A stretch of 64,000 nt of DNA from Mobula hypostoma (GCF_963921235.1 NC_086097.1:145268001-145332000); one strand, 5' to 3'. Counted from the first letter of the stretch, positions 17,946 to 51,555 are shown. Made by a program: numbers and translations. Notes: a model not told the origin generated them from the sequence alone.

Positions 17946-17988
17946 CTGATTGTTTGTCAGATGTAGATCTTGAAGAGGCCACAAGTTC
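17946..17988 (-). CDS. ALS2CL: ALS2CL exon
   Basis: ttacag|...|gtaagc; NLWPLQDLHLTNNQ. Confidence 0.9.
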
Positions 17989-18591: not shown

Positions 18592-18650
18592 CTTCTCCCC
18601 CTTTAAAATCCAACATCCCCAAATGTAAAAAACTAGGAAATAAAAACAGT

Positions 18651-18864
18651 AAACAACAGGAATTCTGCAGATGCTGGAAATTCAAGCAACATACATCAAA
18701 GTTGCTGGTGAACGCAGCAGGCCAAGCAGCATCTATAGGAAGAGGCGCAGTCGACGTTTCAGGCCGAGACCCTTCGTCAGGACTACGAAGGGTCTCGGCC
18801 TGAAACGTCGACTGCGCCTCTTCCTATAGATGCTGCTTGGCCTGCTGCGTTCACCTGCAACTTT
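18651..18864. mobile_element. Penelope-like mini fold-back insertion (A)
   Basis: ~80-bp inverted arms around 18778-18785; TSD gaaataaaaacagt at 18637-18650 and 18865-18878. Confidence 0.9.
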
Positions 18865-21800
18865 GAAATAAAAACAGTGGTGGTATTAACTTGCGTACCC
18901 CTGAAAACTTATACTAGTACCTCAGCAACTGTTTATCAATACAAAACATCTGGAAAACATGACAGATTCAACATTCAATCTAACAACAACAAAAAACTGT
19001 CCCGTCAAAGATTCAGTCTGTCAGGAGGTTTACGAGTGAGCTGTGATCTGCGCACTACCCCCCATGACCCAGCAGGCACCGCTGGTGAGGGTGTTTTGAG
19101 TGGATCTGGTTTTGGGGGCAGGAGAGGGGTCTGTGTGTCTGCGTGAGAATGTCCGTCCTCCTCAGCGGACTTCGACCCCTCTGCCAGCGTCTCGCCCTCT
19201 GGACATGCTTCCACTGTAGTCTGTCTCACAAATGGAAACTCCATGGAACTGTCTGCCTCTGAGTCGGTATCATGACGCAGGCGCACATGGTCCTGATGTC
19301 TGTGGAAAACACTCCCATCAGTCAGCTTAACAACATAGGAGACAGGACCACTCTGCTTAAGAATAACCCCAGGCAGCCATTGCTGATTGTTTCTCACATA
19401 AACATTGTCATCCGGTTTTAACTGTTACTCTCACGCATGTTGATCATGTCCCTCCTTCTGCTTTTCCTGCTTTCTCTCCACTTTTGCTTTCATATCCGGG
19501 CACAGCAGGTCCAATCTTGACTTGGGCCTACACCCTATCAGCATCTCTGCTGGAGTGCGGGCAGTCGTAGTCTGCGGCATGAGGCAGTATTTAAACAAGA
19601 AACGTGAAAGCCGAATGCTAAGAGAGTCCCCTGTCATCCGCTTCAGGCCTTCCTTCACTATCCGAACAGCCCCCTCAGCCAAACCATTGGAGGCTGGGTG
19701 GAAAGGGGCCGTCCGAATGTGATGAATGCCATTCTGCTGCATGAACTCACTGAACAGCTCACTGGTGAACATCGGGCCATTATCAGTGACCAAAGTGTCA
19801 GGCAACCCGTGGACTACAAATACTTGCCTGACTTTGTCTATAGTTGAGGGGGCTGTGATGTTGCTCATGATGTGAGCTTCGATCCATTTAGAATGCGCAT
19901 CTACCATTACAAGAAATATCTGCCCCATAAAAGGACCAGCAAAGTCCAAATGTAGCCTAGACCAGGGGTGGTCTGGCCACTCCCATGGATGCAAAGGAGC
20001 TGGTGGTGGCATATTCTGATTAGTCTGACATTGCGTACATGATTTTACCTTGTTCTCCAGATCCTGATCCATTCCTGGCCACCAAACATAGGATCTTGCA
20101 AGACTTTTCATTTGAAACACTCCTGGGTGAGTCTCATGAATTTCCTCCACAATCTTAATTGGCCAGGGGGAGGCACAACAACCCTCGCCCCCCAGAAAAT
20201 GCAGCCATCCTGCGGACTGACTTCAGTCTTGCATTTGGCATAAGGCCTCATTTCCTCTCCTTCCACGGCTCTGGGCCAACCTTGTAAAAGAAAAGTCTTG
20301 ACTTGGGACAGGATTGGGTCCCTCTCTGTCTGCTGCCTGATCTGGGTCACCTTTACAGTCTCTGGAGGCACATATGTAGTAACAGGTGTCTCAGGTAAAG
20401 GTAGTCGACCCAGTGCATCAGTATTTGCATTATTCCCACCCACTCTGTACAGTACACTATAGTGTACCAGTAGGCTGACAATGCAAGAGCCCAACACTGT
20501 ATCCTGGTTGACGCTAGCGGTGCAATGCATCTAGTCCCACTGAACAGGCTCATCGGTGGTTTATAGTCCGTATAAATTGTAAATGCGCGTCCATAAAGGT
20601 ACTGATGAAAGCGTGTGACCACAAAAACAATGGTCACACCTTCTTTGTCTAGCTGTGAATATCCCTTCTCAGCAGCTGTCAAGGTACGTGAAGCAAAACC
20701 AATAGGCTTCTCTGAACGGTCCTCCATTACATGTGAAAGAACTGGCTCGACTCCATAGGGCGCAGCATCGCATGCAAGGGTGACCTCCTTCTCTGGGTCA
20801 TAGTGAACAAGCAGCTTCGCTGAGTGGAAGAGTTCTTTCACTTCCTTGAAAGCTTCCTCCTGCTCTTCACCCCACTGCCACTTAGTGTTATTGTGAAGCA
20901 GCTTATACAGTGGGGTCAAAACCCTTGAGAGGTCGGGAAGAAACTTGCCATAATAATTCACCATGCCCAAAAATGATCTGAGTTCTGTGACGGTCTTAGG
21001 GCTTGGGGCCTCCTTAATAGCTCTTACTTTATTCTCCACAGGGCAAAGCCCCTCAGCTGTGATCTTGTGTCCCAGGTAAGTCACACTTGATGCCAGGAAC
21101 ACACATTTTCCGCTTTGTGAACAGCTTACCCCCTGACAGGGTCGCAAACAGGTCATCCACCAATGGCAATGGGTACTCCTCCAGCCTAGAGACCTGATTC
21201 ACCGTAAATTTATAATCCCCACAAATCCTCACTATTTTGTCTGCCTTAAAAACTGTAACAATGGGAGCCGCCCACCTTGAAAACTGGATGGACTCAATAA
21301 TGCCCAGCCTCTGTAAACATTCCAGCTCCTCCTCGACTTTGCCTTTTATGGCATAGGGCACCGACCTGGGCTTAACAAAACGTGATGTAGCCTCAGGGTC
21401 GACATGGAGTTTCACTGTCACACCCTTCAGTGTTCCTAGCTCGTCCCTGAAAACGTCACTGTACTGCTGCAGAATGTCCTCCATCGTGTGTGCAGACTTA
21501 ATTTCATGCCAGTTTAGCCGCAATTTGCGAAGCCAATTGTGACCCAAAAGACTGGACCCCCTGCCCTTAGCTATCACTAGCCTGGCTTCATCCTTCTGAC
21601 TCCCGGCTGAAATGTCCACATATAACACCCCTAAATGAGGTATGGGCTGCCCTGTATATATCCTAAGTTTGAGCTTTGACGGTCTAATGGGAGGCAGGTT
21701 GGACCCCCATGTCCTCCTGTAGGTCTCCTCACTAATGACCGATGCAGTAGCCCCTGAATCAATCTCAAACTTAATGCCCTTTCCCCTGACAGTGACTGTG

Positions 21801-22832
21801 GCATAATATGGTTCAGGTGGTTCCTCACCTGTTTCCACTGCAAACACGTTGTAGGCACACGCTGCCTCTTCATCTGCTTCTTCTAGATGGTGTGTGGCTG
21901 CCTGAGCCTGTTGAGCATTCCCCTGCCCAGGCTTAATCTTACCCTATCAACTTCTGCACTTTTTAGCTAGATGTCCCTTTTTGCTGCAAGATGGCAGACA
22001 GTGTCCTTGAATTTGCAATCATTTGCATAGTGCGTCCCTCCACACCGGAAACATTCCACCCACTTTGCCTGTTTACCAGTCTCCCTCCTGACTTTATTAC
22101 TTTATTACTTTATTGCCGCCTAACAGTTGATACTAAAGCATACAATCATCACAGCGATATTTGATTCCATGCTTCGCGCTCCCTGGAGTACAAATCGATA
22201 GTATATATCATAAAAATTTAAATTATAAATCATAAATAGAAAATAGAAAAGGGAAAGTAAGGTAGTGCAAAATAAACTGAGAGGCGGGTCCAGATATTTG
22301 GAGGATATGGCCCAGATCCGGGTCAGGATCCGTTCAGCAGTCTTATCACAGCTGGAAGGAAGCTGTTCCCAAATCTGGCCGTACAAGTCTTCAAGCTCCT
22401 GAGCCTTCTCCCGGAGGGAATAGGGACGAAAAGTGTATTGGCTGGGTGGGTCGTGTCCTTGATTATCCTGGCAGCACTGCTCCGACAGCATGCGGTGTAA
22501 AGTGAGTCCAAGGACGGAAGATTGGTTTGTGTGATGTGCTGGGCTGTGTTTACGATCTTCTGAAGCTTCTTCTGGTCTTGGACAGGACAACTTCCATACC
22601 AGATTGTGATGCACCCTAGAAGAATGCTTTCTACGGTGCATCTTTAAAAGTTAGTGAGGGTTTTAGGGGACAGGCCAAATTTCTTTAGTTTTCTCAGGAA
22701 GTAAAGGCATTGGTGGGCCTTCTTGGCAGTGGACTCTGCTTGGCTGGACCAAGTCAGGTCATTTGTGATATTGACCCCGAGGAACTTAAAGCTTTTGACC
22801 TGCTCCACTTGTGCACCACCAATGTAAATGCT

Positions 22833-24312
22833 TGAAAGTTGCTGGTGAACGCAGCAGGCCAAGCAGCATCTATAGGAAGAGGTGCAGTCGACGTTTCAGG
22901 CCGAGACCCTTCGTCAGGACTAACTGAAGGAAGAGTGAGTAAGGGATTTGAAAGTTGAAGGGGGAGGGGGAGATCCAAAATGATAGGAGAAGACAGGAGG
23001 GGGAGGGATAGAGCCGAGAGCTGGACAGGTGATAGGCAAAAGGGGATACGAGAGGATCATGGGACAGGAGGTCCGGGAAGAAAGACGGGGGGGGGGGGAT
23101 GACCCAGAGGATAGGCAAGAGGTATATTCCGAGGGACAGAGGGAGAAAAAGGAGAGTGAGAGAAAGAATGTGTGCGTAAAAATGAGTAACAGATGGGGTA
23201 CGAGGGGGAGGTGGGGCCTTAGCGGAAGTTAGAGAAGTCGATGTTCATGCCATCAGGTTGGAGGCTACCCAGACGGAATATAAGGTGTTGTTCCTCCAAC
23301 CTGAGTGTGGCTTCATCTTTACAGTAGAGGAGGCCATGGATAGACATGTCAGAATGGGAATGGGATGTGGAATTAAAATGTGTGGCCACTGGGAGATCCT
23401 GCTTTCTCTGGCGGACAGAGCGTAGATGTTCAGCAAAGCGGTCTCCCAGTCTGCGTCGGGTCTCACCAATATATAAAAGGCCACATCGGGAGCACCGGAC
23501 GCAGTATATCACCCCAGTCGACTCACAGGTGAAGTGATGCCTCACCTGGAAGGACTGTTTGGGGCCCTGAATGGTGGTAAGGGAGGAAGTGTAAGGGCAT
23601 GTGTAGCACTTGTTCCACTTACATGGATAAGTGCCAGGAGGGAGATCAGTGGGGAGGGATGGGGGGGACGAATGGACAAGGGAGTTGTGTAGGGAGCGAT
23701 CCCTGCGGAATGCAGAGAGAGTGGGGGAGGGAAAGATGTGCTTAGTGGTGGGATCCTGTTGGAGGTGGCGGAAGTTACGGAGAATAATATGTTGGACCCG
23801 GAGGCTGGTGGGGTGGTAGGTGAGGACCAGGGTAGCCTCCAACCTGATGGCATGAACATCGACTTCTCTAACTTCCGCTAAGGCCCCACCTCCCCCTCGT
23901 ACCCCATCTGTTACTCATTTTTATGCACACATTCTTTCTCTCACTCTCCTTTTTCTCCCTCTGTCCCTCGGAATATACCTCTTGCCCATCCTCTGGGTCA
24001 CCCGCTCCCCTTGTCTTTCTTCCCGGACCTCCTGTCCCATGATCCTCTCGTATCCCCTTTTGCCTATCACCTGTCCAGCTCTCGGCTCTATCCCTCCCCC
24101 TCCTGTCTTCTCTTATCATTTTGGATCTCCCCCTCCCCCTCCAACTTCCAAATTCCTTACTCACTCTTCCTTCAGTTAGTCCTGACGAAGGGTCTCGGCC
24201 TGAAACGTCGACTGCACCTCTTCCTATAGATGCTGCTTGGCCTGCTGCGTTCACCAGCAACTTTGATGTATGTTGCTTGAATTTCCAGCATCTGCAGAAT
24301 TCCTGTTGTTTG
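22833..24312. mobile_element. Penelope-like fold-back insertion (B) with GIY-YIG endonuclease 3' fragment
   Basis: Minus arm 22833-~23832 encodes YPCKWNKCYTC...GVIYCVRCSRCGLLYIGET...RFAEH (ORF 23219-23842); plus arm ~23830-24311; TSD caatgtaaatgct at 22820-22832 and 24313-24325. Confidence 0.93.
24178..24213 (+). ncRNA. Minimal type I hammerhead ribozyme motif (representative copy)
   Basis: AGTC-CTGACGA-AGG(gtctcgg)CCT-GAAAC-GTC^-GACT; also at 33301-33336 (+), 35308-35343 (+), 18749-18784 (-), 22886-22921 (-), 33531-33566 (-); variant copies 32841-32876 (-), 49971-50006 (-), 50082-50117 (+). Confidence 0.82.
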
Positions 24313-25392
24313 CAATGTAAATGCTACTCGTTCTGAAGTCAACAACCAATTCCTTCGTCTTGCTGACATTGAGGGATAGGTTATTGTCTTCACACCATGC
24401 CACCAGGTTCTTAATTTCCTCTCTGTACTCAAACTCATCATTACCCGAGATACGACCTACAATTGTTGTGTCATCAGCAAATTTATATATAGAGTTCAAT
24501 GGAAACTTGGCTACACAATCATGGGTGGACAGTGAGTACAGCAAGGGGCTGAGTACACAGCCTTGTGGGGCACCAGTGCTCAGAGTGATTGTAGAGGAGA
24601 GCTTGTCCCCTATTTTTACAGCCTTGGTCCTGTCTGTGAGGAAGTTGAAGATGCAGCTACAGATCTGAGTGCTAAGACCCAGGTTCCGGAGCTTAGGAAT
24701 CAGTTTATCTGGAATGATGGTATTAAAGGCAATGCTGTAATCAATGAAAAAGGAGACTTGGGGCAATGCTGCTGACTGCGATCCCCATGTCCTTTCTGGA
24801 TATTTTTGACATTATTAGCAGCCATCTCCATGCCTTGGGCAATCTCTAAAGCTTTCCTGAAAGTCAATGGTGGGGTGTCCCCACAGGAGGTGTTGTGTTC
24901 CGTCATTATTAATGCCGCATACCAATCGATCACGGAGCATGTCTTCCAACACCGCTCCGAAATCACAATGCTCCGACAGTTGCCAAAGCTCGGCCACAAA
25001 ATTAGCCACAGACTGACCTGGCTTCCTGAAACGGCTGTGAAATTTACACTGTTGGACTATCACAGAAGGTTTCGGATTGTAATGTTTCCCCATGAGCTTG
25101 ACCAATTCGTCATATGGAATGTCCCCCGGTTTCCACGGTGCGGCTAAATTCCTTATTAGCTTGTAAGTCTTCGCCCCACACACACTCAGGTGAATAGAGC
25201 ATTTCTTAGCCTCCTCAGTAATTCCATTAGCACAGAAAAAGTGTCCCAACCTTTCCTCATACTCTAGCCAGTCCTCGTTTCCGTCCCAAAATTCCCTGAT
25301 AGTTCCAAACATAGCCATCTGAAATGCAAAGCTCCCATTCGAAAAACGTGCCAATACGTTCACAAAACCAGTTCACCTCATCGCCAAAAATA

Positions 25393-25619
25393 TGTAGTAA
25401 CTTCTACTTTGAAAAAGGCACACTCAACAACTTCATGCCCAAGAAACAACTTTATCTCGAACTTCAAAACTCTTATGTATTTACAGATGCTTTCACAACC
25501 CGTACGGTATGGCAGGGACACTATATACAGGGACCACCAGAATTAAAAAGAACGGAAGTAAAACCCCCCATTATCCTAATTAGTATTAACTTACTTTTAA
25601 TAATGCTCACATTACAACA
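25393..25619 (-). repeat. 5' LTR of the Gypsy element
   Basis: Direct repeat of 18365-18591, followed on minus strand by the PBS-like motif. Confidence 0.93.
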
Positions 25620-25681
25620 CTTACCATCAATAATTTCATTCAGTGTCTCCACTCAAGATCCATAAAGTAATCTACACTTAC

Positions 25682-25858
25682 TTTTGTACTTCTAGGAACT
25701 CCAGGAGCTTAGTGTCAGAGAGGTACTCCAAATATAATATTCCCTTCCAGTATCTTGAGTCCTCATCTTCATGATACAGCATATAGAGCATGAAGAGATC
25801 AGGATAGAACCGTGGCAAGATTAGGGGAAGAACCACTGTGTAAGCATTTAGCTCTTCA
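25682..25858 (-). CDS. ALS2CL: ALS2CL exon
   Basis: ctgtag|...|gtaagt; EELNAYTVVLPLILPRFYPDLFMLY...DTKLLEFLEVQK. Confidence 0.95.
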
Positions 25859-26794
25859 CTACAGACACAAAAAATAGACAAGTATAAAGAGAATGTCTTC
25901 TCTATTTGGGTATAACATCCATTAAACTATTAATGAAAGGGATTTACCTTCCATGGTACATTATAAAACATCTGCATTAGTATAACAATCGTTTCAAGAA
26001 TTACTACTTATTTGGACATTCATAATTTATTTCAAGCTCATGTGAAGTTAATGCTGCATTTAAATATTACTTTTCTGATGGTTTCTTGCAGGAATAGATT
26101 TTGCTAGGTTTGCAAGAGAAATAGAATTTACATTACAGTTGCTGTTTTTGGATTTAATTAATGATAGAATATCTATCATCATCCATCATCAAAGATCCCT
26201 ACTACCTTCTTGCAGCTACCATTACACATGAACAGAACCCTAAAGTCTCATACCACCATTTTCAAAAACAGCTACTTCCCTTCAACCATTTGTTTCTTGA
26301 ATGAACCAACACAATCCGAATCACTGTCTCGGCATAGCAATACTGTGACCATTTTGAGCACTTTGCACTAAAACATGTCCTGCTCTAATGTTCATCCTCC
26401 CCGTCTAGTGGTTGAATATTTTCCACAAGTAATGATTCTTTGTTTAACTCCATCCTTATCGCTGGTCTCCGCTGCACCTGGTTCCACCTGGTCTAAGCCT
26501 CTCCTGGTAGTTCACTGGTTGAAGATACAGAACTTCACCTAACAACCACGGATCAAACCCAGCCTGGCAACCACCCCTGTTAAAAATATGGACTTTGATA
26601 TGTTGTTCTTTCTTGTATAATTTTTATATATCTTTATAGAATTTATGTTCTTCTGGTAAATGTTCTGTCTAATGCTATGTGCCTGTGATACTGCTACAAG
26701 AAAGTTTTTCATTACACCCGTGCATACATGAACTTGTGCCTATGACAACTATGTCAACTTTGATTTTGATAACATTATCAAAGTCTGGTTTTAC

Positions 26795-26851
26795 CTGATT
26801 TTACCTTCTGCGGAATAACATTCTTCCTCTATTGCCTTGGGCAAGAAATAC
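26795..26851 (-). CDS. ALS2CL: ALS2CL exon
   Basis: tttcag|...|gtaaaa; YFLPKAIEEECYSAEGKI; low sequence conservation but phase 2/2 fits both neighbours. Confidence 0.75.
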
Positions 26852-28688
26852 CTGAAAAACAAATTAATTGAAAGGCACACTGTTCACCTTTGACTCTTCC
26901 AGAAGTCAGAGTTATCAAGATTGTCACTGAGTATGCAGTAAGTTAAAAGCACAGAAGTGGGCTATTCAGCCTATTAATTTGCATCAGCATTTGTGCTCCA
27001 AATAAGATTCCTTCTTCTACCATACTGCACCTAAACCTATGAAGCACATCCTTTTTTCTTTATGTTTTCATCAATTTTCTCCAGAAATGCAACTATGCAA
27101 TAGGCCTCAACTACTCCTTGGCATGGCTACACTACATTTAGACAACTCAGTGGCTAAAAACAAAATTCTCCAGAAATACCAAAGTAGTAAAAATTACTAG
27201 GAATGACTATGATGAACTAAAACTTACAATGCTATATTAATATTAATCTCAGGGATCACCTTTATCAAGAAATGCAGATATGATGTGACACTTAATTAAA
27301 AATATTAAAGTTCTAATGACTGACCATTGATCTAGTACATTTAAGTCTGTTTCTTTATTCATCTGACAATCTGACTTATTCTAGCATTTACACTATTTCA
27401 ATTTTCTATCATCCGCAGTATCCAAGATAAGCAATTTAATTTTATTATTTATAAGTAATGGTCACGTGTCAATTTTTCTCAAGAAGGTGCAGTGTCTACA
27501 ACCTTTCATAACAAACACCTTCTCAGTCTGCTTTCCATGTGAATACTTTTTGCAGCTTCTTTTTCCAGAGTGACCAGACCAAGGACATTAATTTAAATAT
27601 GGTTTCAATAAGTTTCTAAGCACACTGATACAATCAATTTTCCTGAACTGTTGCATGAACTCATCCTTCACACCATTACTGTAAATTTGTTTCTCTTTGG
27701 CTGTATGATTACTATAAAATCCTGCTTAGATCCACCTACAATTATCTGATTTATGCTCTGCTTAGCAGTACAGCTAATGATTGGAGAGACTTCAACCATT
27801 CCCACCAATGTGTTCTGTCCTTTAACAGTACTCAGTTTTAGTCAAATTGATTGTAATCCTTAAATTTCTGAGCTGTGGTTCTTTATGTTGTTGGCAACCC
27901 GTTCTTATTACCAGAGTGGCTTCTGAACATTTTCTTTCTCCTCCCCCGCTTTTTCCAGTTTGTTTACCATTTCCAAAATAGTTAGTTCTTTGAACACGCT
28001 CCAACTACTTTAATATTAATAAATTAAATTTATTAACATTAGTAGGTGTTTTAAAGATCCAATCTGCTTGTTTCATTTATTCTATTTTGTTGCACAATCC
28101 TACCAATACCGACGGTAGAATCAATGAAAAAAAATTTCTTAATTAATTGGCTAAAGTCAAAGCAGACCTGAAATTAAACTCAAAACATTAATCAGTGATC
28201 TACTTTTTCTGAACGGAAATGATGATCCCTTTTTTCCGCGCTCAGTGGTTAGCTGAGAATTTGAAGCTCAGTAGATCTGTTGTCTAACCATTCTGCAGTT
28301 TTAAACTTTGGCAATGTTTCCCAGTGATGAAATATTAGACATTTGATTCCTGCTGCATAAACATCAGAGTTATTGCTGTTTTTTTTTCATTATGCCCTCA
28401 TTCCATACATATTCTTCCTTCCCAGGCTCTCCTCTAATGTTAACAAGTTTGCCAAGAGCATTTACCTAAAGCAATTCCAAGCATCAATCCTTACCCTAAT
28501 TTAAGTAAATTACATATCTACGCATTTAATTTTATCTGCCTTTGAAATGCTATGACAGATTAAACAGAAATTTGGCCGGTTGAGGGATATGCCATCAAGA
28601 AAATTTGTACAGAATATGCAAGTCAGTAGAGTTAGTGAAGAAAACAAGTACATTAATCCAAAGATGGAGCAGAAAATGTAACACTGAC

Positions 28689-28846
28689 CTGGCCAGCTCA
28701 AAGAGCTTGTTGGCATGGGACACCACTTCCTGCTGTGCCATTGAGAGCAACCGTTTACACATACAAATGCCAGAAAATGTGTCCTGGAAAACCAGGATCA
28801 GTGTCTGAAGCAGTTTCCCTAGAGGATGACGGTAAGACTGAAAAGC
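28689..28846 (-). CDS. ALS2CL: ALS2CL exon
   Basis: ttctag|...|gtcagt; AFQSYRHPLGKLLQTLILVFQDTFSG...ELAR. Confidence 0.93.
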
Positions 28847-29605
28847 CTAGAACAAAAATTAGAGACGTTGATCATCTTTTCTTAAATTGTATTTTCCTTA
28901 TTTTTGTTTTGTCCGTTCAAGGCAGTTTATGAAGATGATAGGGTACAATGAGTAGACAATATTAAAGCACACAGTAACCTAGCTTTATTTTCATCACATT
29001 CTGAAATACAAGAGTAAAGTTATGGTAAATCTTTATAAATAATAGATAAGGCCTTATCTGGAGTTGTGTCCCATTTTGTGCGTGGCTGCAGAAAAAATCC
29101 ACTAGAAATATATACGCAAGGACTGATGAGCTGTATGTATATGGAGACTATCAAAACTGAGATCTTTCTCCTTGATAATATGGGCTAACTTTTCCTTCAA
29201 TAGACCAAATGACTTCCTGCTGGTTATATTATTCATTGTGATATTATAGCATGGCTGAGGCAACTGGTTCCTAATAATATTAATTAACATTTCCCACTCC
29301 AGATATGTGACCAGCTAATCTTGGAATGGGTGGGGGAGATGATGTTGAAGGTAACACCTTTTGAAGGACAGGATAAGTAATTATTCAGCTCCTTCAGGTA
29401 GAGCACTATTTTAAATAGCAGCATTCATGTTGTTTCATCTAATGACCAGTAATTGAGCCAACATGATGAGATCAATTTAAATTGTCAAAAGTAAATAGTT
29501 TGTGTGGATGCCATTTGCAAATGAGCTGATGCATTTTGTCCACAATATTTCAAGGAAGTGCTTAATTGGAAAAAAGAAGTTTGTCCTTTAAATCAAACGC
29601 CTTAC

Positions 29606-29693
29606 CTTCTTCAAGTACTCCTTCAATTGGTTTAGCTTAGCCAAGTTACCCTGATTTTGCATGATTTTCTCAGAAGAGGAGGCATCATTTGGC
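29606..29693 (-). CDS. ALS2CL: ALS2CL exon
   Basis: ttctag|...|gtaagg; PNDASSSEKIMQNQGNLAKLNQLKEYLKK; phase 2/0 fits. Confidence 0.85.
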
Positions 29694-32722: not shown

Positions 32723-32742
32723 TAAAACACTAATAAATCTGT

Positions 32743-33398: not shown

Positions 33399-33432
33399 CA
33401 CTAATAAATCTGTGCTGGCTTTCATTAATGAC

Positions 33433-40799: not shown

Positions 40800-40877
40800 C
40801 TTTCCAGTTAGAACTAGGTCTTCTGTAAACTCTCCCTCATAGACAGAATCATCCTCTGACAAAATTGTCCCAGGACC
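40800..40877 (-). CDS. ALS2CL: ALS2CL exon (MORN repeat)
   Basis: catcag|...|gtataa; GPGTILSEDDSVYEGEFTEDLVLTGK. Confidence 0.95.
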
Positions 40878-41159
40878 CTGATGAAATAGTGAATATGTCA
40901 TTAGATGCTGAGAAGTTTTAAAAAGAACAGTTAATTTGACAAAATTGTGGAAAGTGAATTAGTATTCATTGTGAGGGTCATTATATCATTTGAGTAGAGT
41001 AGAAGACCAAGGGAAAAAGACATGACGTCGAACAGAAAGTCATGAAGAACTATTATAAAACACGGACTTCACCATGACAGCAGTACTTCATCCAGTCTGA
41101 AACCCAGCCTTAGCAAAGATGTAATAGCTGTACGAATGAAGCAAAAAAAAAATCCTATG

Positions 41160-43815
41160 GATAGACTGGAGAAGTTGAGACCGTGTCTTTTGAACAGAGG
41201 GAGTTGTCTATGCCTAGATTTGCAAGAGATAGGTGGGATTTTTAATCAATATATCTCATCATTGTTTACTGAGGAACATGGCATGATTGTTGAAGGTTTA
41301 AGGGAAACAAATGGAGATGTTTTGAAGGGCATTCATATTAATAGGGACGAGGAACTTTCAGCATTATAGTGCATTAAGAATAAAGACAAGAACTTTACAG
41401 TACAGTACAATCTCTTCAGACCGTGATGTTGTGTCAACCATTTAAAATATCTAAGATTAAACTGAACAATCCCCAAGACCTGATCAAGTGCACCCTCAGA
41501 TTTTGTAGGAGGCTAGAGGAGAAACTGTGGAGGTCTTCTCAGAGATACTTGCTTCATTATTATCCGTTGATGAGATTTCTGGAGATTGGAAACTGGCTAA
41601 TGTTGCTCCATTGTTTAAAAAGGGTAGCAAGGACAAGCCGGGGCTGGTCAGTCTGACATCAGAAATGGGAAAGGTACTGGAAGGAATTCTCAATGACAGG
41701 ATCTACCGGCATTTGGATTGAATCTGATTAGATGGAGTCTGCATGGCTTTGTGTTTCGAAGATCATATTTGATCATTTTTGATCATTTTTAAAGAGCTTT
41801 TTGAAGAGGTAATCAAAAAAGTAATTGAGCGTAGGGCAGTGAATGTTGTCTATTTGGAATTTAGCAAGGCTTACGACAAGTTTTTGTATGCTAGGCTCGT
41901 CTGGAAGGTTTGACCCCATGGAATCTAGGGAGAGCAATTAAGTGAATTCAAACTTAGTTGAGAGGTTGATGGTTTCTCAGAATGGAGGCAGATGACTAGT
42001 GGTGTGCTGCAGGGATTGCTGTTTCGTTCATTGTTATTCACTACTTATATTAATGATTTGGATGAGAATGCAACAGACTTGATCAGTAAGTTTGCAGACG
42101 ACACAAATTTGGACTCTTGTTGATAGTGAAGAAGGATATCATAGGTAACAAAGGGCTCTTAATCTGTATTGAAAGTAAGCCAAGGAAGGGCAAATGGATT
42201 TCAGTTCAGATAAGAGTAGGGTAATGCATTTTGAAAAGCTAAACCAGCATAGGACTTGTACTATGAATGATAGAGCATTAGAGAGTTTAATGGAACAGAG
42301 GGACTTAGGAGCACGTGTATAATTCATTGAAAGTGGCCTCACAGCATATTCAGTATTTAGGCCTTGGTTCAATGGCTGTGGGGAAAGACGAGATGACTGA
42401 ATCTATTAACAACTAATCTTTCAATAATCACTAGATTCTAGAATGCTTCCAGAAGACTGGATAATTGCAAATGTCTCTCCACTCTTCAAGAGAGTTAGTC
42501 TGACCTCAGTGGCTGGGAGCCACATGATAAAATAGTCCTTAGTCAGTATGGTTTCCTCAAGGGAAAGTCTTGCTTGACAATCTGCTGAAATTCTTTGAAG
42601 AAATAACAAGCAGGATAAACAAAGGAGAATTAGTTGATGTTGTGCACTTGGATTTTCAGAAGGCCTTTGGCAAGGTGCCACACAAGAGGCTGCTTATCAA
42701 GCTATGAGCCCATGGTATAACAGGAAAGATTCGAGCATGGATAAAGCAGTGGCTGATTGGCAGGAGGCAAAGAGTGGGAATAAAGGGAGCCTTTTCTGCT
42801 TGACTGCCAGTGACTAGTAGTGTTCCACAGAGGTCTGTGTTGGGACCGATTCTTTTTATATTATAATATGTCAGTGATTTGGATGATGGAATTGATGGCT
42901 TTATTGTGAAGTTTGCAGTTGAAATAAAGATATGTGGAGAGGCAGGTAGCTTTGAGGAAATAGACAGGCTACAGAAGGACTTAGACTGATTAGCAGAATG
43001 GGCAAAGAAATGGCAGATGGAATGGAGTGTCGGGATGTGTTTGATTATGCACTTCGGTAGAAGAAATGAAAGGGTTGACTAATTTCTAAATAGAGAGAAA
43101 ATACAAAAAACTGAGGTGCAAAGAGACTTGGGCAGGATTCCCTAAAGATTAATTTGCAATTTGAGTCTGTGGTGAGGAAGGCAAATGAAATGTTAGATTT
43201 CATTTCAAGACGACCAATATATAAAAGCTAGGATGTAATGTTGAGACTTTATAAATCACTGGTGAGACTTCAATTGGAGTATTGTGAACAGTTTTGGGCC
43301 CTTCATCTTAGAAAGGATGAGCTGAAACTGAAGAGGGTTCAAAGGAGGTTCACGAAAATGATTCCAGGATTGAATGGCTTGTCGTATGAGGAGCGATTAA
43401 TGGTTCTGTGCCTGTGTTCCCTGGAATTCAGAAGGACGAGGGGTGACCTCATTGATTCCCATCAAATGATGAAAGACCTTGATAGAGTGGATGTGGAGAA
43501 TATGTTTCTTATTTTGGGAGAGTCTAAAACCAGAGGACGCGGCCTCAGAATAGAGGGATGTCCTTTTAGGATGGAGATGAAGAGAGTGGTGAATCTGTGG
43601 AATTCTTTGCCACAGGCAGCTGTGGAGGCCAGGTCTTTATGTATATTTAAGGCAGAGGTTGATAGCTCTTGATTGGTCAGGGCATCAAGGGATACAGGAA
43701 GAAGACAGAAGATAAGGCCTGAGAGGAAAAATGAATCAGCTATGATGAAATGGCGGAGCAGACTCGATGGGTCAACTGGCCTAATTTTGCTCCTATATCT
43801 TATGGTCTTATAATA
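41160..43815 (+). mobile_element. Two adjacent CR1-type LINE RT fragments (~41160-42350 and ~42400-43815)
   Basis: DWKLANVAPLFKKG; MLRLYKSLVRLQLEYCEQFW...VVNLWNSLP; tail cctatatcttatggtctta; many stops; boundaries approximate. Confidence 0.85.
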
Positions 43816-44098
43816 AAGTTATTAATGCCTTAATTTTTTAAACAAACTCAATAATCAATTTGCAAACAGAATCCTACTTGTGTTGAAATTATATTTTTAT
43901 TTACATTGCCTGAGGAATAAATTTTGGCCAAAGCTACAGAGAACACCGTCCATTCCTCTCAAAAAAAAGGCACAGATAGATAAATCACATCAGCAGAGGC
44001 AACAGACTGGGTCTCAGTTTAATATACTGAAGGCAGGACAAGAGAAGGCTGATGATCCAATCTATATTGGGTCAGTGGATAGACTAATTGCTACTCAC

Positions 44099-44210
44099 GA
44101 TGATCTTGTTGTTTTGGAAATTGCCCTCATAGCTCACTCCTGACTGTGTGATAACAATGCCACTTCCATGTCTGCAGTCCTCCAGCCACGAGCCAATGTA
44201 CCTCTCCCCT
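44099..44210 (-). CDS. ALS2CL: ALS2CL exon (MORN repeat)
   Basis: atgcag|...|gtgagt; GERYIGSWLEDCRHGSGIVITQSGVSYEGNFQNNKII. Confidence 0.95.
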
Positions 44211-46628
44211 CTGCATAGAATCAGAGGTTCAGTTTATTTTTGGCTAATGATTGAAAAGCAGAACAATTTCAAAAATAATGATAGGCAAATACACTACTTG
44301 AGAAAATAGTATTTCAAGCATCTTCTCTTCTGTCCCAAATTTCTACACCTTCTGAACAACAGCATAGGTTCAAGTATATGTCCGAAGTGTAAAAATCTCC
44401 TTGCATGCCCAAAGAAGCTTCTTTATTAGAATAAAGTATGGTAGGCAAGGTTAGACCTCACTTCACATTTAATTTTTTAAAAACTTGCTGAGGAAAATAA
44501 TTCTGGTTGAGCTGTCATGCACCTTGATAGAAAGAATAAAGGTGTAGACCATTTCCTAAATGGGGAGATAATTCAAAACTCAGAGTTTCAAAGGGTCTTG
44601 GGAGTCCTTGTGCAGGATTCCCTAAAAATTAACTTGCAGGTTGAGTCCGAGGTGAGGAGGGCAAATGCAATGTTAACATTCATTTCAGAGGACTAGAATA
44701 TAAAAGAAAGGATGTGATGCTGAGGGTTTATAAGGCATTAGTCAGACAACACGGAGTATTCTGAGTAGCTTTGGGCCACTTATCAAAGAAAAGATGTGCT
44801 GGCATTAAAGAGGGTCACTTCTTGCTGCCTTACTAAAACAACCAGCATAATCAAAGACCCCACGTACCCTGGACATTTCTCACTTCTCCCCCCTCTTTGA
44901 GCGGAAGATACACATACAAGGCTCATGGAGAGCCTCTATCCTGTCATTATAAGATCATTGAAATGTCCCTGAGTACAACAAGCTAGACTCGTGACCTCAA
45001 TCTGTCGCATTATAGTATTGAACCTTATTGCCTGTCTGCATTTTTCCTGTAACACATCATTCTGCTATTGCTTCCCTTGTTCTACCTCAATATACTGTTG
45101 TAATGAAATTATCTGTAGTAATATCATGCAAAAAGAAACCCTTTTCACTTTGCCTCAGCACATGTGTCAAGAATATACCAGTTTATCAATTAACCAATTT
45201 TAAAATGTTCCTTCAGTGTAGCACTAAAGTTCTAAACATGGACAAATCAATTAGACTTGGGGTGGGATCCACAAATAACTAACTCAATACAGTGGACAAC
45301 AATTGAACCATGATGATATTTTATTTTGAAGGCATTTTTATGGAAGATGTCAATGAATGTCGTTGTCTTTCTGCAGAAATACTAGAAAATACTCTAAGTC
45401 ATTGGTACGTAAACAGCAGCATACTTCAAGTTATCAGTCATAGGCACTTCCAGAAATGATGTGGTTTCATCCAACATTATTATTTACAAGTCATCAAAAC
45501 ATATAAAGTTGGAGGCAATCTTGTAATTAGTAGTGACTAGTTTCTCCATATAGAAAATTCTTTTTGCTGACATCAAAGACACAGGAATAAAAAACGAGTA
45601 AGATGTAGATTTTGTTGTAACCCATCAAAAGTGGAGAACATCTGGAACATGCTCATGAAAAGTCTGTTGATGCAGGTTAATTATACACTCAACACTAAGA
45701 TCGACTGTTTATTGCCAGTTTCAGGTTGCAGTGAACTATGCAGAGATGCAGGTCAATGTGATTCAGATACAGAGAAGTCAAGACCTAATTAAATACTAGG
45801 AGTCTGAATGTCCAATCTTCTACCCTGAAATATAACTCAAATATCAGATGGAGGAGTGCATACTAATGTCCATGCAAAACTAAACATAGAAAATACAAAA
45901 TCAGCTGTCAGTTGTTAATAGTCTTATTAAAATATTTTCAACCATTATCGCTGATTAAGGACAGAGACCAGCCTTGATTTCACCAGCTGAGGCAAGTGGA
46001 TAATCTTGAAGATTATTGTTCCAAATCAAACTTTCAATGAAACAGTCGATACAATGGGAGTGTCTGTTGTGACTATAAATGTGAACATGGCGTGAAGGGA
46101 AGTTAATTTTGTAAAGAGACATCTGACTGTCAACTCTACCGAACAATGCATCAACTCACTCCTGGAATATGTTCTACTGACATCACTTTCGCCATTTGGT
46201 TTATTGTAACAGTTATTCTTGTGGATTCTTGATAGTCATGTGGCTAGCATCGTGTGAATCATAAAGGAGAGCAGTGTCCTCCACCAAAATCAACTCACAC
46301 ACATTTCTAAGATCTATGGTTGAATAACAATATGCAATAGGCCCCAGTTCCACCTAGAGCCCATCTATCACTATCCCAACTGGGTTAACCGTGGTGCATG
46401 AAGTTGAAGAGCTATCTCAGCAAAGGTAAATGACAATTAGATGTCTCTTTCTGGGTGCTAGAAAACTTCTGGAAAACATGCACCTCCAGAAAATTATTCT
46501 CAAAATTTACCCAAGCTGACTTTGAGGCCATCTCCACACACAAGTATATACATTAGTTTTGAGGGGAAGAGTCTTTTCTCCTCTTTGACTGTTGATTCAA
46601 TATTACAATCTACTTGACAGCCTCCTAC

Positions 46629-46790
46629 CTTTCAGGGTCATCAAGCACTCCGTATCCTGTTTTTTTATCATTCTCCCAGTGCCCCATATACTTAAAGGCT
46701 TGCTTTTTCAAACAAGAGTTGTGTAGAATTCCAAATCCATGCCTTTGGTTGTCTTGGAAGTAACCTTTATAGACCATGCCATTTCCATAC
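46629..46790 (-). CDS. ALS2CL: ALS2CL exon (MORN repeats)
   Basis: tcttag|...|gtagga; YGNGMVYKGYFQDNQRHGFG...YMGHWENDKKTGYGVLDDPER. Confidence 0.95.
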
Positions 46791-48018
46791 CTAAGAAGAG
46801 AGTGACTTTTGAGTATTGTTTTCACATTGGGGTGTATATTATATTAAAATTTGGCCATGTTGTTCCAAATTCAATCCACAGTCTTCAATGAAACAGCAAA
46901 ATGGGGGACGGGGTGGTTTGAAATCTCAACAAAAGTTATTATTCTTATTCCTTATCTAGTGAGTCCTGTTGAAATCATGAGAAATCAGGAAATACCAGAC
47001 GTATATCTGTGGCAAGTTACCCCTATGATCACATCACAGACCACTGGCAAACAAACTGGATTGATACTGAACGATACTTGCTTATGTAAGGCATCAGAGT
47101 TTACAAGCATTTGCACAAGTGGAAACTGTCTGCTGAGAGAAGTAGAGTCAACCAAAGGTGGGGTTAGGGAAAACTTAGCACCATTGTTGCCTTAGACACT
47201 GGAGCTAAATATCTCATTTGGCACATTTTCTCACCACCCTAAACAAATATTAGAAATTCAAATGCACAAATAGGCCTGAACCTGTCTATGCAATTTTCTG
47301 TGCTAACAGATTGAATTCCATAATGAAGGTGCAGGTGGCAATTGTACTACAATTTCTCACTGAAAAAAAGCATGGAATGTTCTTGGAAATAGTCCAAAGG
47401 TGATTCACTAAGATGAAACTTTGGATACAAGAACTGGTTTCTCCAAGTCTCAGCCATAAATGTGAATATAAAAGGATGTTTTCAAATGGACAGAAGGCCA
47501 AACACTGGACTGTGTCAGTTGTGAATACAAACTAAGAAATGTATTTCCTTGAACATAAAATTAGAACTAAGCTAATTAAAGCATTACAGATGATATTTCT
47601 TCATAAAACTAAAAAGGAAGTACAATAGAAGAGCATTCAGAGATGGCTGTGAAGAATGCACTAGATCAGCACAAAATGAGCAGAATCCAGGATAGCCAGT
47701 ATAGAAAATAGTTCAGGCATAATTGATCAATCTTCCTGTTTAATGTCAATGGATTCAAGAAATGTATATGCCAGATCCCTGTTTAAGAAGAAGGGGCAGA
47801 GGGAATGGAAACAAGGCAAATATGGAGCAGATAATCTAGTTTAGTTGAGGGAAATACTTCTAGCATTTGGGCATAAATTTAGTACTCAATTTGAAATAAG
47901 TGAGTTAGTTTAACACAGATCATAAAAGTTGCTGGAGTTTAACTCATCCAAGCTGATCATCTTATACTATAGCCTGAGAGCTGACCATTTTGACGAATCG
48001 AAAACTAGTTGTACTTAC

Positions 48019-48114
48019 TCACAGATGCCATAACCATGCATCTTTCCCATTTTCCAGTGACACTTGTAACAGTCAAAGCTCTCTGGCCCTCCAGGAGTGA
48101 CATATACACCAAAC
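48019..48114 (-). CDS. ALS2CL: ALS2CL exon (MORN repeat)
   Basis: ttccag|...|gtaagt; FGVYVTPGGPESFDCYKCHWKMGKMHGYGICE (FDCYKCHW recalled from ALS2CL). Confidence 0.95.
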
Positions 48115-48954
48115 CTGGAACAAAGCACCAATGGTTATTTCAGTCATATCATTGAAACATTGCATCAGTGTAACAGTAGCATTCATATGGTCATGCAAGA
48201 GCTGGTTTTGTTCCCACTCAAAGCTCTGCAAAGCTAATTAAGCCGGAGTTCAATAATGTTCTCTCCCCCTTTCTTACTGTGCAGCCGTAACAATACTTTA
48301 AAGAGAATCAGCCAACCCATCTTGCCACTCAGCTGGTCAGGAAGGACCACACAAAATGGTAACATAAATATGGACCACTTACATTTATTCTGCAGATTCC
48401 CACTTCTTCCCACCCCCCTCCATCAAATTGTTAGAGCTGTTTCCAAGAGATTTTTCATTGTTCAGTTTGGAAGCTACTCATCTAAAATTTGGCGTTTCCA
48501 TTTATACAGAAAAGAGCAGTTTGCACCATTAATACAACAATAATCTTCAAGGTATTCTAGGTAATCAAAGGACCTTGACAATAAGCCACAGAGCGAGTTT
48601 TGGATGGGTGATTAAAAGCTTCGTCAATTAGGTAGGTTTTTACAATATTTTAAAAGGAGAAGTGCACAAAATGGAGGAGGAACTCTGCAAGTCAGGAAGC
48701 ATGGAGGGAAGCAGGCAATCAACATTTCAGATTGAGACCCTTCATCTAGACTTCAAAGGAGAATGTCCTCGTAGGCAGGAATCCCAGAAATAGTATATAT
48801 AGCACATTCTATGTACCACACTGATCATATTTTTGTGCCACTGTCATCTTTTCCCACTAATTGCAACCTTAGCTAAATAAAGCAAATCTCCTTTTCATTT
48901 ATCAAAGCAAAATGTTTGCCTCACTCAGGAGTAAACTGAATGTCTCATTTAATT

Positions 48955-49645
48955 AGTGAGCAATTCCAAGTTCCTGGGTGTCAATATCTCTGCGGTTCTA
49001 TCCTGGGCTCAAACATATCAATGAAGGCATGACGGTGGCTATATTTCATTAGGAGTTTGAGGAGACTTGGTACATCACCAGAGACACTTGCAAATTTCTA
49101 CAGCTGTACGGTGGAGAGCTTTCTAACTGACTGCATCACCGCCTGGTATGGGGGAAGGGGCACTGCACAGGATCAAAATAAGCTGCAGAAAGTTGTAAAC
49201 TCAGTCAGCTCCATCGTGGACATGAGCCTCCCCAGCACCCAGACCTAAAAAGTGATGACTCAGAAAGGCAGCATCCATCATTAAGGACCCCCATCACCCA
49301 GGACATACCCTCTTCTCATTGCTACCATCAGGGAGGAGGTACAGGAGTCTGAAGGCACACATTCAATGATTCAGGAATAGCTTTTTCCCACTGAAATCAG
49401 ATTTCTGAAAAGACATTGAACCCATGAACACTACCTCGCTACTTGTTTTTTTTTCTCTTTTTGCATTACCTTTTATGTATTATATATTTATATACATTAT
49501 ATATAATTACTTACTGTATTTGCCATTTTTATTATGTATGGCAATGTACTGCTGCCGAATAACAATTGTAATTTAACAGTTTAACAGGTAAAGCTCTGTA
49601 AGTATGGAAATATGCCAGTGGAATTAAAACTGATTCTGATTTTGA
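48955..49645 (+). mobile_element. Rex1-like LINE 3' fragment
   Basis: LANFYSCTVESFLTDCITAWYG...LQKVVNS; ends ctgattctgattttga; related pieces at ~26170-26770, 50400-50890, 51940-52310. Confidence 0.75.
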
Positions 49646-49871
49646 TTAGCTCAACAAGCCTTCAAGCCACAATTGAAAATAAATGCTTGGGCAAAGTTTC
49701 TGACCGTGACAGCAGAACTTAGATTTATGCAACATAAAAATTGTAAAATATCCAGTGTTCTAGACAGGAGAATTCACAAATAAAAGAATTATTTGGACAG
49801 ATGCTAAGATTTGCTCAAAATGGCTCACATTAGGGGATATGTTCAAGGAAAAAACATGGTGGTAGAAAAAG

Positions 49872-50175
49872 CAAACACGAGGAAATCTGCAAATGCTAGA
49901 ATTTCAAGTGTCACACATAAAAATTGCTGGTGAACGCAGCAGGCCAGGCAGCATTTATAGGAAGAGGTACAGTCAACGTTTCGGTCCGAGACCCTTTGTC
50001 AGGACTAACTGAAAGAAGGGATAGTAAGAGTGGGAAGCGCCCCTCTCACTTTCAAATCTCTTACTATCTCTTCTTTCAGTTAGTCCTGACGAAGGGTCTC
50101 AGCCCGAAACGTTGACTGTACCTCTTCCTATAGATGCTGCCTGGCCTGCTGTGTTCACCAGCAATTTTTGTGTGT
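49872..50175. mobile_element. Penelope-like fold-back insertion (E), slightly diverged subfamily
   Basis: Inverted arms around ~50030-50055; TSD gtggtagaaaaag at 49859-49871 and 50176-50188. Confidence 0.88.
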
Positions 50176-51555
50176 GTGGTAGAAAAAGAATAGCATTACC
50201 AGGATTGTAATAACCTAAAGACACTGTCAGAAATAAAATCACTTATAAGCCGGGTGTTTTCAGTGCCTTGCAGAGAGGAATGCATGCAAAATAAACATGT
50301 TTCCATACATATCGAACTCCTCCTGTTAAACTGTTGAATCACAAATGTTGTTTTTAAGTGGCAACTAAGAGGAACAAGACTAGACAAGAATAAGTGCTAA
50401 TGTGAGTATGTGTCTTTAGGCTTTTTACAACTTACTGCAGCTTTTTCTGATCTTGTGCAGTAAACACTCCATACCAGATGGAGATGCAAACAGTTAAAAT
50501 GCTTTCCATGAAACATCTGTAGAAATTCATTTTTCTTCAGTGATATACTAAGTCTCTTCAAGCTCTGAATGAAATATAGCCGCTGCTTTGCCTTCTTTGT
50601 AATTGCATCAATATGTTGGGCCCAGGATAGATCTTCAGAGATGTTGACACCCAGAACCATGGTTTCAGGAACAGCTTCTTCCCCTCCATCAGATTTCTGA
50701 ATAGGTAATGAACCCATGTACACTATCTTGCTTGTTTTTGCTCTCTTTTTGCTCTGTACATTTAATTTAATTATTTATATACATTTCTTATTGTAATTTA
50801 GTTTTTTATTATTATGATTGCAATGTACTGCTGCAGCAAAACAACAAATTTCACGACATATGCCAGTGATAACAAACCTGATTCTGATCACTTTTTAATG
50901 TTTTGGAGTTATTTTTCTGGAGCGGAGGTTCAAGTTAATTTCACTGATGTTGTGATTTGTGTTTTCACCATTTGTGTTGGGTCAGATGTAGAAAATCACA
51001 AATGGTTATTTAGACTCTTAATAGATTGAAGAAGTAAATATACAGAAAGATGGAATGGTTTTTAATCACAATTTACATAGCAGAAGGAAAGAAATCCATT
51101 CTGTTTGCATCCGTGGGTGCTAAATCATGCTAGTTAATGAAAGTCCTGCTGGGCCCACCCAAACACAAAGGTAGGGCAATTAAGGAACTAGTCCAGCTAG
51201 TCAAACAGTATGAGTGACTCACCTTCACCCAAAACTAAACAGAATATCAACTGCACTGGGCTTTATTGCACAATTAAGACAAATTGCTGAATATTTCTAG
51301 CGAGATATACGTTTGGATGCTACATGATTAGAGTTTGTGGAACCTTGATAATTATTGTCAAAGGAGAATGCTCAGTGAGCAGAAAACAGAAACGGCAAAG
51401 ATTTGGATCATTTTAGGTGAGGTTGAAAGACTGAAGACATACAGAAGAAAGGAGAATAGTCAAGCTGAACAATACCAATGATTCTTATTACAATAAAAGC
51501 AAGTCAAGGGAAAAGCCATTTGATAATAAGTCAGTGGAGATCAGGCATTACTTAC

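What the first reader, a model, noticed from the sequence alone, without database searches (positions are those of the whole stretch)
18637..50188. Penelope-like family whose young insertions are all ribozyme-bearing fold-back hairpins
Seen: five independent insertions (18651-18864, 22833-24312, 32743-33398, 33433-35406, 49872-50175) share one architecture. Two 5'-truncated copies are joined at the centre with 3' ends outward, there is a 12-15 bp A/T-rich TSD, one arm ends at the family terminus (...GAATTCCTGTTGTTT or a close variant) and the other stops ~33-47 nt short. Established: Penelope-like elements encode RT + GIY-YIG, carry hammerheads, and often show inverted pseudo-LTRs with a short 3' tail. 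Inference: 5 of 5 suggests fold-back is the normal integration route here, for example a truncated cDNA snapping back or switching template, or twin priming at two sites on the RNA. The family would then seed introns with dsRNA-forming palindromes.
Basis: partly seen in the sequence, partly recalled or inferred. Interest (0 to 1): 0.78.

Follow-up and report, generated by a model that had tools for sequence, protein, structure and literature searches.

The report
Two-ended Penelope insertions in ray introns
These five mirror-image insertions in the introns of a ray gene are real copies of a Penelope-type jumping gene in a layout long known for that class, and their ends suggest each was likely written by two copying starts, one from each cut DNA strand, on one RNA.

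Summary
The five insertions are real. Each has an exact 12-15 nt target duplication, two head-to-head 5'-truncated arms and a tail on one arm only. All lie in introns of ALS2CL. The family is a very high-copy GIY-YIG Penelope-like element with the Neptune/Nematis-type linker; its nearest named proteins are from rays.

The layout is the published hallmark of such elements (PMC8557442, PMC3846280, PMC2377424). "All young hairpins" is overstated:
- Arms differ by 1.3-6%.
- A related single-armed copy has a perfect 12-nt duplication.
- A sixth copy is an inversion, not a hairpin.
- n=5 bounds the rate only above about 55%.

Plain snap-back fits poorly, because in E2-E4 and the sixth copy each arm holds sequence the other lacks. 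Two primings on one RNA, at the terminus and 33-47 nt inside, fit best (about 55%, inferred). The minimal hammerhead is intact in 7 of 10 arms but predicted to be sequestered by the partner arm.

No genome or long reads were available, so the genome-wide fraction is untested. The scan reported this layout before on other DNA (497 notes, at least 44 genomes).

The parts
18637..18878 (.). E1 with 14-nt TSDs (18637-18650, 18865-18878), inserted in a Gypsy-type LTR element inside an ALS2CL intron
18651..18785 (-). E1 tailed arm, family offsets -1 to -135; inner end at the 5' strand of hammerhead helix I
18785..18864 (+). E1 short-ended arm, -127 to -48; starts inside the hammerhead core; 1-nt overlap at the junction
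22820..24325 (.). E2 with 13-nt TSDs, inserted in a LINE RT fragment that lies inside the Gypsy element
22833..23832 (-). E2 short-ended arm, about 1000 nt; carries the CX4CxxC linker position and GIY-YIG/CCHH endonuclease end (open frame 23222-23830); reaches about 565 nt further 5' than its partner
23830..24312 (+). E2 tailed arm, -483 to terminus; about 3-nt microhomology at the junction (upstream frame read from homologues)
32728..33413 (.). E3 with 15-nt TSDs; tailed arm 32743-33129 (-), short-ended arm 33130-33398 (+), which starts 26 nt further 5' and has an internal deletion of about 100 nt
   Evidence: right end also present in organism B
33421..35418 (.). E4 with 12-nt TSDs, 7 nt from E3's TSD; near-perfect 2-kb palindrome; tailed arm 33433-about 34435 (-), short-ended arm 34436-35406 (+); apparently absent from organism B
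49859..50188 (.). E5 with 13-nt TSDs; older subfamily; tailed arm 49872-about 50037 (-), short-ended arm about 50038-50175 (+)
24178..24213 (+). Example minimal type-I hammerhead (helix I, CUGANGA core at 24182, bulged A, helix II, GAAA, loopless palindromic helix III); intact cores also at 18755-18780(-), 22892-22917(-), 33305-33330(+), 33537-33562(-), 35312-35337(+), 50086-50111(+)
   Evidence: descriptor from PMC4209133
37478..37663 (.). Sixth two-armed copy, older: tail-only inverted arm (37491-37539, -1 to -47), short T-rich filler, sense arm from the hammerhead to -36 (about 37550-37651); TSD 10 nt exact or 12 nt with one mismatch. An inversion, not a hairpin
31626..31757 (+). Single-armed related copy (31638-31746, -110 to terminus, about 78-81% identical to the young arms) with a perfect 12-nt TSD and no inverted partner
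17026..17319 (.). Old decayed head-to-head pair of a related family (66% arm identity), no TSD found
11386..61347 (-). Host gene ALS2CL: 20 collinear exon hits to residues 263-999 of a ray ALS2CL; all five elements fall between exon hits

Best explanation
These are real two-armed insertions of a high-copy GIY-YIG Penelope-like retrotransposon, each likely made when both cut target strands primed copying of one element RNA, one at its terminus and one 33-47 nt inside. Shown: TSDs, head-to-head arms, one-sided tail, shared arm variants, GIY-YIG end, intronic position. Inferred steps: (1) the endonuclease cuts both strands 12-15 nt apart in A/T-rich DNA; (2) each 3' end primes a cDNA, giving the tailed and the short-ended arm; (3) the inner primer runs ahead, and the terminal cDNA either stops early (tail-only inversion as at 37.5 kb, or E2) or follows to about the same end of the RNA (near-perfect hairpins E1, E3, E4, E5); (4) the two cDNA 3' ends join with 0-3 nt of microhomology or a short filler, and fill-in makes the TSD. 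When only one strand primes, a single-armed copy results (31.7 kb). In ALS2CL pre-mRNA each hairpin is predicted to form long dsRNA that sequesters the hammerhead, so the ribozyme motif is likely a passenger there.
For: Exactly one tailed arm in 5 of 5 (P=0.03 if each arm chose freely at 50:50), and also in the 37.5-kb copy. In E2, E3, E4 and the 37.5-kb copy each arm holds sequence its partner lacks, so neither is a plain copy of the other. The short-ended arm reaches as far or further 5' in 5 of 6 cases (E2 about +565, E3 +26, E4 +4 to 9, E5 about 0, 37.5 kb about +85). Arms share one template: 15 of 19 two-arm-only variants are within one element; between E2 and E4, 6 of 7 two-versus-two columns pair by element and the seventh is a poly-C gap. 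Inner ends lie within 30 nt of each other in 4 of 5 elements versus 1 of 40 cross-element pairs (lengths entered by hand). In public contigs, 14 of the 15 best-supported joints shown (of 371) go from an antisense arm to a sense arm; 4 have the antisense match ending within the tail while the sense arm starts at the hammerhead. In vitro, an anole Poseidon protein cleaves and extends both strands, starts RT at two sites that bound the tail, prefers A/T-rich DNA and is predicted to be a dimer (PMC11167929). Forcing the hammerhead fold costs 55-67 kcal/mol in E1, E3 and E5.
Against: E1 breaks the order: its tailed arm reaches 8 nt further 5'. Asymmetric central deletions are known to stabilise palindromes (PMC8701086) and could have removed inner sequence after a snap-back. 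Arm similarity could reflect one master active at a time or conversion between arms; the six E2/E4 sites reflect a single lineage split, and 4 of 19 doubletons cross elements. The joints have sides of only 20-26 nt, 14 of 15 are marked 'between: not known', detection depends on E3's own variants, and one listed filler shows an antisense arm running on past its apparent end. Inner ends cluster near the hammerhead, which inflates their coincidence. The in vitro data come from a different clade (Poseidon) and no inverted product was reported in the parts read. Only 5-6 loci were examined in full.
Confidence: 0.55

Rival explanations
1. Snap-back: one cDNA primed at the terminus is truncated, folds on itself, is copied back and joins the second target end 33-47 nt short; later central deletions make the arms unequal.
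For: Near-perfect turns in E1, E4 and E5, with inner ends within about 10 nt. Shared arm variants. E1 fits fully. Asymmetric central deletions are known (PMC8701086), and self-annealing of 3' ends is proposed for L1 inverted duplications (10.1101/2024.12.14.628481, passages).
Against: It needs a secondary deletion biased to the tailed arm in E2, E3, E4 and the 37.5-kb copy. E4's 2-kb palindrome has survived with almost no spacer while gaining 13 differences. It gives no reason for the short ends, which match the published second RT start bounding the tail.
Confidence: 0.2
2. Dual priming: each cut strand primes on a separate RNA molecule, or on two repeats of a tandem transcript, held by a dimer.
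For: It removes the need to copy one RNA stretch twice. PLE transcripts are tandem and the protein is a predicted dimer. Dual priming is proposed for L1 (PMC2837659). One master could supply both RNAs and explain shared variants.
Against: It does not predict one tail per element (5 of 5) or coincident inner ends at 380-1000 nt in E3 and E4.
Confidence: 0.13
3. Self-priming on an antisense transcript, as proposed for rotifer Penelope, creates the inverted structure before integration.
For: Proposed in PMC3846280 for head-to-head copies with junction palindromes (Discussion). Some joints recur at multi-copy depth in two organisms, as expected if pre-formed structures were mobilised.
Against: The five junctions in the window are all different, and E2, E3 and the 37.5-kb copy lack a junction palindrome. 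The in vitro reaction uses sense RNA.
Confidence: 0.08
4. The palindromes are assembly or library artefacts (fold-back chimeric reads).
For: No spanning long read was available; no listed contig spans a whole element.
Against: Exact TSDs at all five; arms differ by 1.3-6%, mostly transitions (36 of 43); each junction is distinct. An organism-B contig shares E3's right end and TSD and leaves at the end of E4's TSD.
Confidence: 0.02

Closest known systems
Complex insertions of endonuclease-positive Penelope-like elements: inverted 5'-truncated copy plus a 30-40 bp tail at one end (PMC8557442 passages; Pen2a_Av of Adineta vaga, PMC3846280 passages; Drosophila virilis Penelope, PMC2377424 passages)
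   Same: Head-to-head inverted copy, one-sided tail, TSD, 5' truncation, C-terminal GIY-YIG, hammerhead in the terminal repeat.
   Different: Here both arms are truncated 3' ends with no full ORF or partial tandem; TSDs are 12-15 nt (8-10 in the rotifer examples read); the short end falls at two or three offsets (33-47 nt).
Neptune/Nematis clades of EN+ PLEs (PMC8557442)
   Same: CX2-5CxxC motif upstream of GIY-YIG, CCHH motif, RT upstream of EN in homologues.
   Different: No RT tree with named references was built, so Neptune versus Nematis is not separated; targets are A/T-rich but not microsatellites.
Poseidon of Anolis carolinensis (PAc), PMC11167929 (parts 1-3 of 4 read)
   Same: Two RT start sites bounding the tail, both strands cut and extended, A/T-rich targets, hammerhead near the tail.
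   Different: Different clade (no linker finger); the parts read do not model or report inverted two-armed products.
L1 twin priming and proposed dual priming (PMC2837659 passages)
   Same: TSD-bounded inverted fragments from priming on both target strands; short internal microhomology.
   Different: L1 gives inversion with internal deletion and a poly(A) tail; here the arms usually overlap almost fully and the second primer sits at a nearly fixed offset.
Minimal hammerheads of metazoan PLEs (PMC4209133, parts 1-2 of 4)
   Same: Conserved core, bulged base before helix II, loopless palindromic helix III; opposite-strand pairs 100-700 bp apart were already noted in Schistosoma.
   Different: G10.1-C11.1 is G-U in the young subfamily (G-C in E5); no cleavage test exists for this motif.

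Membership tests
EN+ Penelope-like elements | C-terminal GIY-YIG endonuclease with CCHH motif | tested here: met
   Pfam GIY-YIG E=9.1e-5, above cut-off, for E2's frame; two Cys between the GIY and YIG words and downstream His residues
EN+ Penelope-like elements | Telomerase-like RT in the same ORF upstream of EN | tested here: inconclusive
   No window copy reaches the RT. Homologues at 46-67% identity carry weak RVT_1 plus GIY-YIG hits, below cut-off for RT (3 of 6 scanned); homologues at 83-93% show the YIDD/YIDK RT motif upstream
EN+ Penelope-like elements | Inverted 5'-truncated copy with a 30-40 bp one-sided tail | tested here: met
   5 of 5, missing 33-47 nt
EN+ Penelope-like elements | Pseudo-LTR from partial tandem copies | not testable with these tools
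   No full-length or tandem copy in the window; no genome held
EN+ Penelope-like elements | Hammerhead motif in the terminal repeat | tested here: met
   7 of 10 arms match the core pattern, 0.06 expected; no Rfam hit
Neptune/Nematis clades | CX2-5CxxC linker finger upstream of GIY-YIG | tested here: met
   CKRNKCYTC in E4, CKWNKCYTC in E2; criterion from PMC8557442
Neptune/Nematis clades | RT phylogeny groups with named Neptune or Nematis elements | not tested
   No named reference sequences were on hand and the window has no RT
Penelope/Poseidon clade | Absence of the linker finger | tested here: not met
   The finger is present
Active hammerhead ribozyme | Covarying helices I and II | tested here: inconclusive
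   89.7% of cells paired but no excess over shuffles (80/500); sequences too similar, and one row (F37) is misaligned
Active hammerhead ribozyme | Self-cleavage | not testable with these tools
   Minimal motifs need a same-sense partner (PMC4209133); predicted penalty 55-67 kcal/mol inside the hairpins
Non-LTR retrozymes | Tandem direct repeats of a short non-coding hammerhead unit | tested here: not met
   Copies are inverted, dispersed, and two carry endonuclease-coding sequence; definition from the search listing and passages of 10.64898/2026.07.22.740005

The most novel reading that the evidence does not exclude
In this ray family the default integration is a two-ended reaction: a dimeric enzyme primes both target strands on one RNA at two fixed sites, and the terminal copy displaces the inner one to the RNA's end. 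Hairpins, tail-only inversions and single arms are outcomes of one race, and the pile-up of inner ends at hammerhead helix I marks the element's RNA start. This would explain the long-known inverted-arm-plus-tail shape of Penelope-like elements and make the family a steady source of intronic dsRNA.
Probability: 0.4. Interest if true: 0.6.

Novelty: new member of a known kind. Interest (0 to 1): 0.28.

Why it matters
The shape is textbook for Penelope-like elements, so the finding itself is ordinary. What is open is how the shape arises: the one in vitro study read leaves the steps after priming unvalidated (PMC11167929). A very high-copy family with clean TSDs offers thousands of natural products against which one-RNA, two-RNA and snap-back models make different countable predictions. 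The hairpins are also predicted long dsRNA in a host pre-mRNA, which could draw A-to-I editing or small-RNA silencing; nothing here tests that.

Tried and rejected

Searches that found nothing useful:
- Exact hammerhead-pattern scans of metagenome, viral and prokaryotic collections: 0 loci each.
- Protein scan of metagenome contigs: 5 distant loci (37-46% identity). Two of the five have an inverted repeat at 95% or more (L001 53 nt, L002 73 nt), but the contigs are too short to test TSDs; not used.
- Rfam at gathering threshold: 0 matches.
- Free folding of 7 short stretches: no z-score beyond -0.9.
- Covariation: no excess over shuffles.
- Earlier scan notes by sequence: none.

Sequencing runs:
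- No RNA holder listed on record; expression and editing are untested.
- Summed contig depth over the tail was lower than over the body, but it is no copy number and has edge effects; not used.
- E4's left junction was not covered in run X1; a hole proves nothing.
- The loose end at 33566 (-134) fits a truncation hot spot but equally fits subfamilies with different 3' UTRs.

Ideas rejected:
- That inner ends mark the ribozyme cut. The cut would follow -103; E1 and 13 of the 14 arm-to-arm joints shown lie at -120 to -144.

Literature:
- A search for 'Penelope-like' + 'twin priming' + 'inverted' listed 2 papers, neither on PLE mechanism by title and abstract start. Other searches.
- The library lacks most subscription papers. 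Arkhipova 2006 and Pyatkov 2004 were not read and may hold such a model.
- Three PMC11167929 supplements held as text had none of four terms (figures not seen). PMC12602865 had none of five terms. bioRxiv supplements were not seen.
Full report
OBSERVATION. The five elements are present as described. Exact target duplications of 14, 13, 15, 12 and 13 nt flank E1-E5; 1 of 5000 random boundary pairs gave 12 or more. The GIY-YIG frame fixes the sense strand: the left arm is antisense and the right arm sense, so 5' ends meet in the middle. One arm reaches the terminus (left in E1, E3, E4, E5; right in E2) and the other lacks 33-47 nt. Arms within an element differ at 1/80, 11/435, 11/234, 13/962 and 7/117 columns, 36 of 43 differences being transitions. 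That pattern fits ageing in the genome and not chimeric reads. It also shows different ages: E3 and E5 are older. One 1749-nt contig of organism B matches 33371-33432, across E3's right end and both TSDs, then leaves where E4 begins. I read this as E3 present and E4 absent in B; the departing letters were not shown, so this is inference.

IDENTITY. E2's frame hits Pfam GIY-YIG above cut-off. The best of 23 homologues is a Mobula hypostoma protein at 93%, followed by Hypanus sabinus proteins, so the host is likely a ray. Three of six homologues scanned carry weak RT hits beside GIY-YIG. The alignment shows the CX4CxxC linker and CCHH motif, which PMC8557442 assigns to Neptune/Nematis and not Penelope/Poseidon (passages). 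No RT tree was built. The family is very abundant: 287,022 contigs of one run lay on a 1-kb arm at 85% likeness. A minimal hammerhead core occurs 7 times against 0.06 expected, in 7 of 10 arms; E1's short arm starts inside the core and one arm each of E3 and E5 is mutated. It fits the minimal motif of PMC4209133 (parts 1-2 of 4). Rfam gave no hit and covariation was not above shuffles.

CONTEXT. A MORN hit among 198 frames scanned led to ALS2CL. Twenty collinear exon hits run from 61347 to 11386 on the minus strand, and all five elements lie between them. E1 and E2 are nested in a Gypsy-type element (LTR-like repeats 93.5% alike; protease and integrase hits); E2 is also inside a LINE RT fragment. 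As minus-strand RNA, E1, E2, E3 and E5 fold at -0.72 to -0.82 kcal/mol per base, against about -0.2 for the non-hairpin copies; E4 was not folded. Forcing the hammerhead costs 55-67 kcal/mol in E1, E3 and E5. The dsRNA claim is therefore a sound prediction and the ribozyme is likely sequestered; neither was observed.

IS IT ALWAYS A HAIRPIN? A sensitive search found seven more related remnants. Two are two-armed: an old pair at 17026-17319 and a copy at 37491-37651, whose inverted arm is only the tail (-1 to -47) and whose sense arm runs from the hammerhead to -36. Five have no partner found within about 1 kb; one of them, 31638-31746, keeps a perfect 12-nt TSD. So 7 of 12 related loci are two-armed, and 5 of 5 among those at 85% or more identity to the youngest arms; the 95% lower bound for the latter is 0.55. 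The older remnants are 63-81% alike and may be other families. No genome was held, so the true fraction is unknown. In public contigs laid on E3, 14 of the 15 best-supported joints shown (371 in all) go from antisense arm to sense arm. This shows the junction type recurs elsewhere but gives no rate.

MECHANISM. Three features bear on it. First, one template: 15 of 19 variants seen in just two arms are shared within an element, and 6 of 7 informative columns pair E2's arms against E4's. This is weakened by subfamily structure and possible conversion. Second, one tail per element in 5 of 5 (P=0.03 under free choice). Third, mutual exclusivity: in E2 the short-ended arm has about 565 nt of 5' sequence that the tailed arm lacks, while the tailed arm has about 47 nt that it lacks. 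E3 (+26), E4 (+4 to 9) and the 37.5-kb copy show the same; E5 is about level and E1 is the exception (-8). A copy made by snap-back cannot exceed its template, so snap-back needs later deletions biased to one arm; such deletions are known (PMC8701086 passages). Two primings, at the terminus and 33-47 nt inside, explain all six with E1 as a small overrun. They match PAc, which cleaves and extends both strands and starts RT at two sites bounding the tail (PMC11167929, parts 1-3 of 4). Inner ends coincide within 30 nt in 4 of 5 elements versus 1 of 40 cross pairs (lengths entered by hand), which favours one RNA over two. I put this at 0.55, snap-back with later deletion at 0.2, two RNAs at 0.13, antisense self-priming (PMC3846280 Discussion) at 0.08 and artefact at 0.02. 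Every step after 'two arms inside a TSD' is inferred. Inner ends cluster at -120 to -144, around hammerhead helix I and not at the cut site (-103), in E1 and in 13 of 14 joints shown. Detection bias applies; reading this as the RNA start is taken from earlier scan notes and was not tested.

COMPARISON AND NOVELTY. [quoted passage not shown] PMC3846280 describes inverted pLTRs with tail and TSD and calls head-to-head the most frequent arrangement. PMC2377424 says the most frequent D. virilis structure is flanked by inverted terminal repeats. Twin and dual priming are described for L1 (PMC2837659 passages). My searches showed no paper applying twin priming to PLEs, but key subscription papers were not readable. 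The scan's own notes hold 497 similar findings in at least 44 genomes, several with the same reading; they are unchecked and not independent support. My two-priming reading was recorded before I saw them.

VERDICT. Real, correctly described, and a new member of a known kind. The residual value is as a natural test set for an unsolved integration step. Interest 0.28.

Noticed in passing
window 32728-35418: E3 and E4 are independent insertions whose TSDs lie 7 nt apart, a few bases beyond what looks like an LTR end near 32722-32725 (loose ends); possible local targeting preference.
   Followed up: partly
window 18365-25622: Broken Gypsy-type LTR element on the minus strand (LTR-like repeats 18365-18594 and 25393-25622, 93.5% alike; protease and integrase hits) filling most of one ALS2CL intron and hosting E1, a LINE fragment and E2.
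   Followed up: partly
window 4103-4435 (+): JmjC-domain exon (Pfam JmjC E=9e-16) of a gene on the strand opposite to ALS2CL; gene not identified.
   Followed up: no
window 17560-17945: Old Penelope-like 3' end stops about 10 nt from the ALS2CL exon hit at 17946-17990; no partner or TSD found.
   Followed up: partly
window 14389-14513, 40057-40147, 48666-48753: Decayed single terminal remnants of related families (63-72% alike), each beginning near the hammerhead.
   Followed up: partly
P0003, P0007, P0009: Named ray protein isoforms (DIPK1C, mucin-2, chitinase domain-containing 1) contain this element's endonuclease sequence; may be exonisation or annotation error.
   Followed up: no
window 24240-24275 (+): The short-arm end points (-47 and about -35) fall in a predicted small stem-loop just before the tail (fold not better than shuffles), recalling the stem-loop where PAc starts RT.
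   Followed up: partly
window 63229-63741 (-) and 1048-1785 (-): A 171-aa frame resembling a DNA-transposon-associated protein by recall (no Pfam hit) and a LINE C-terminal zf-RVT frame.
   Followed up: no
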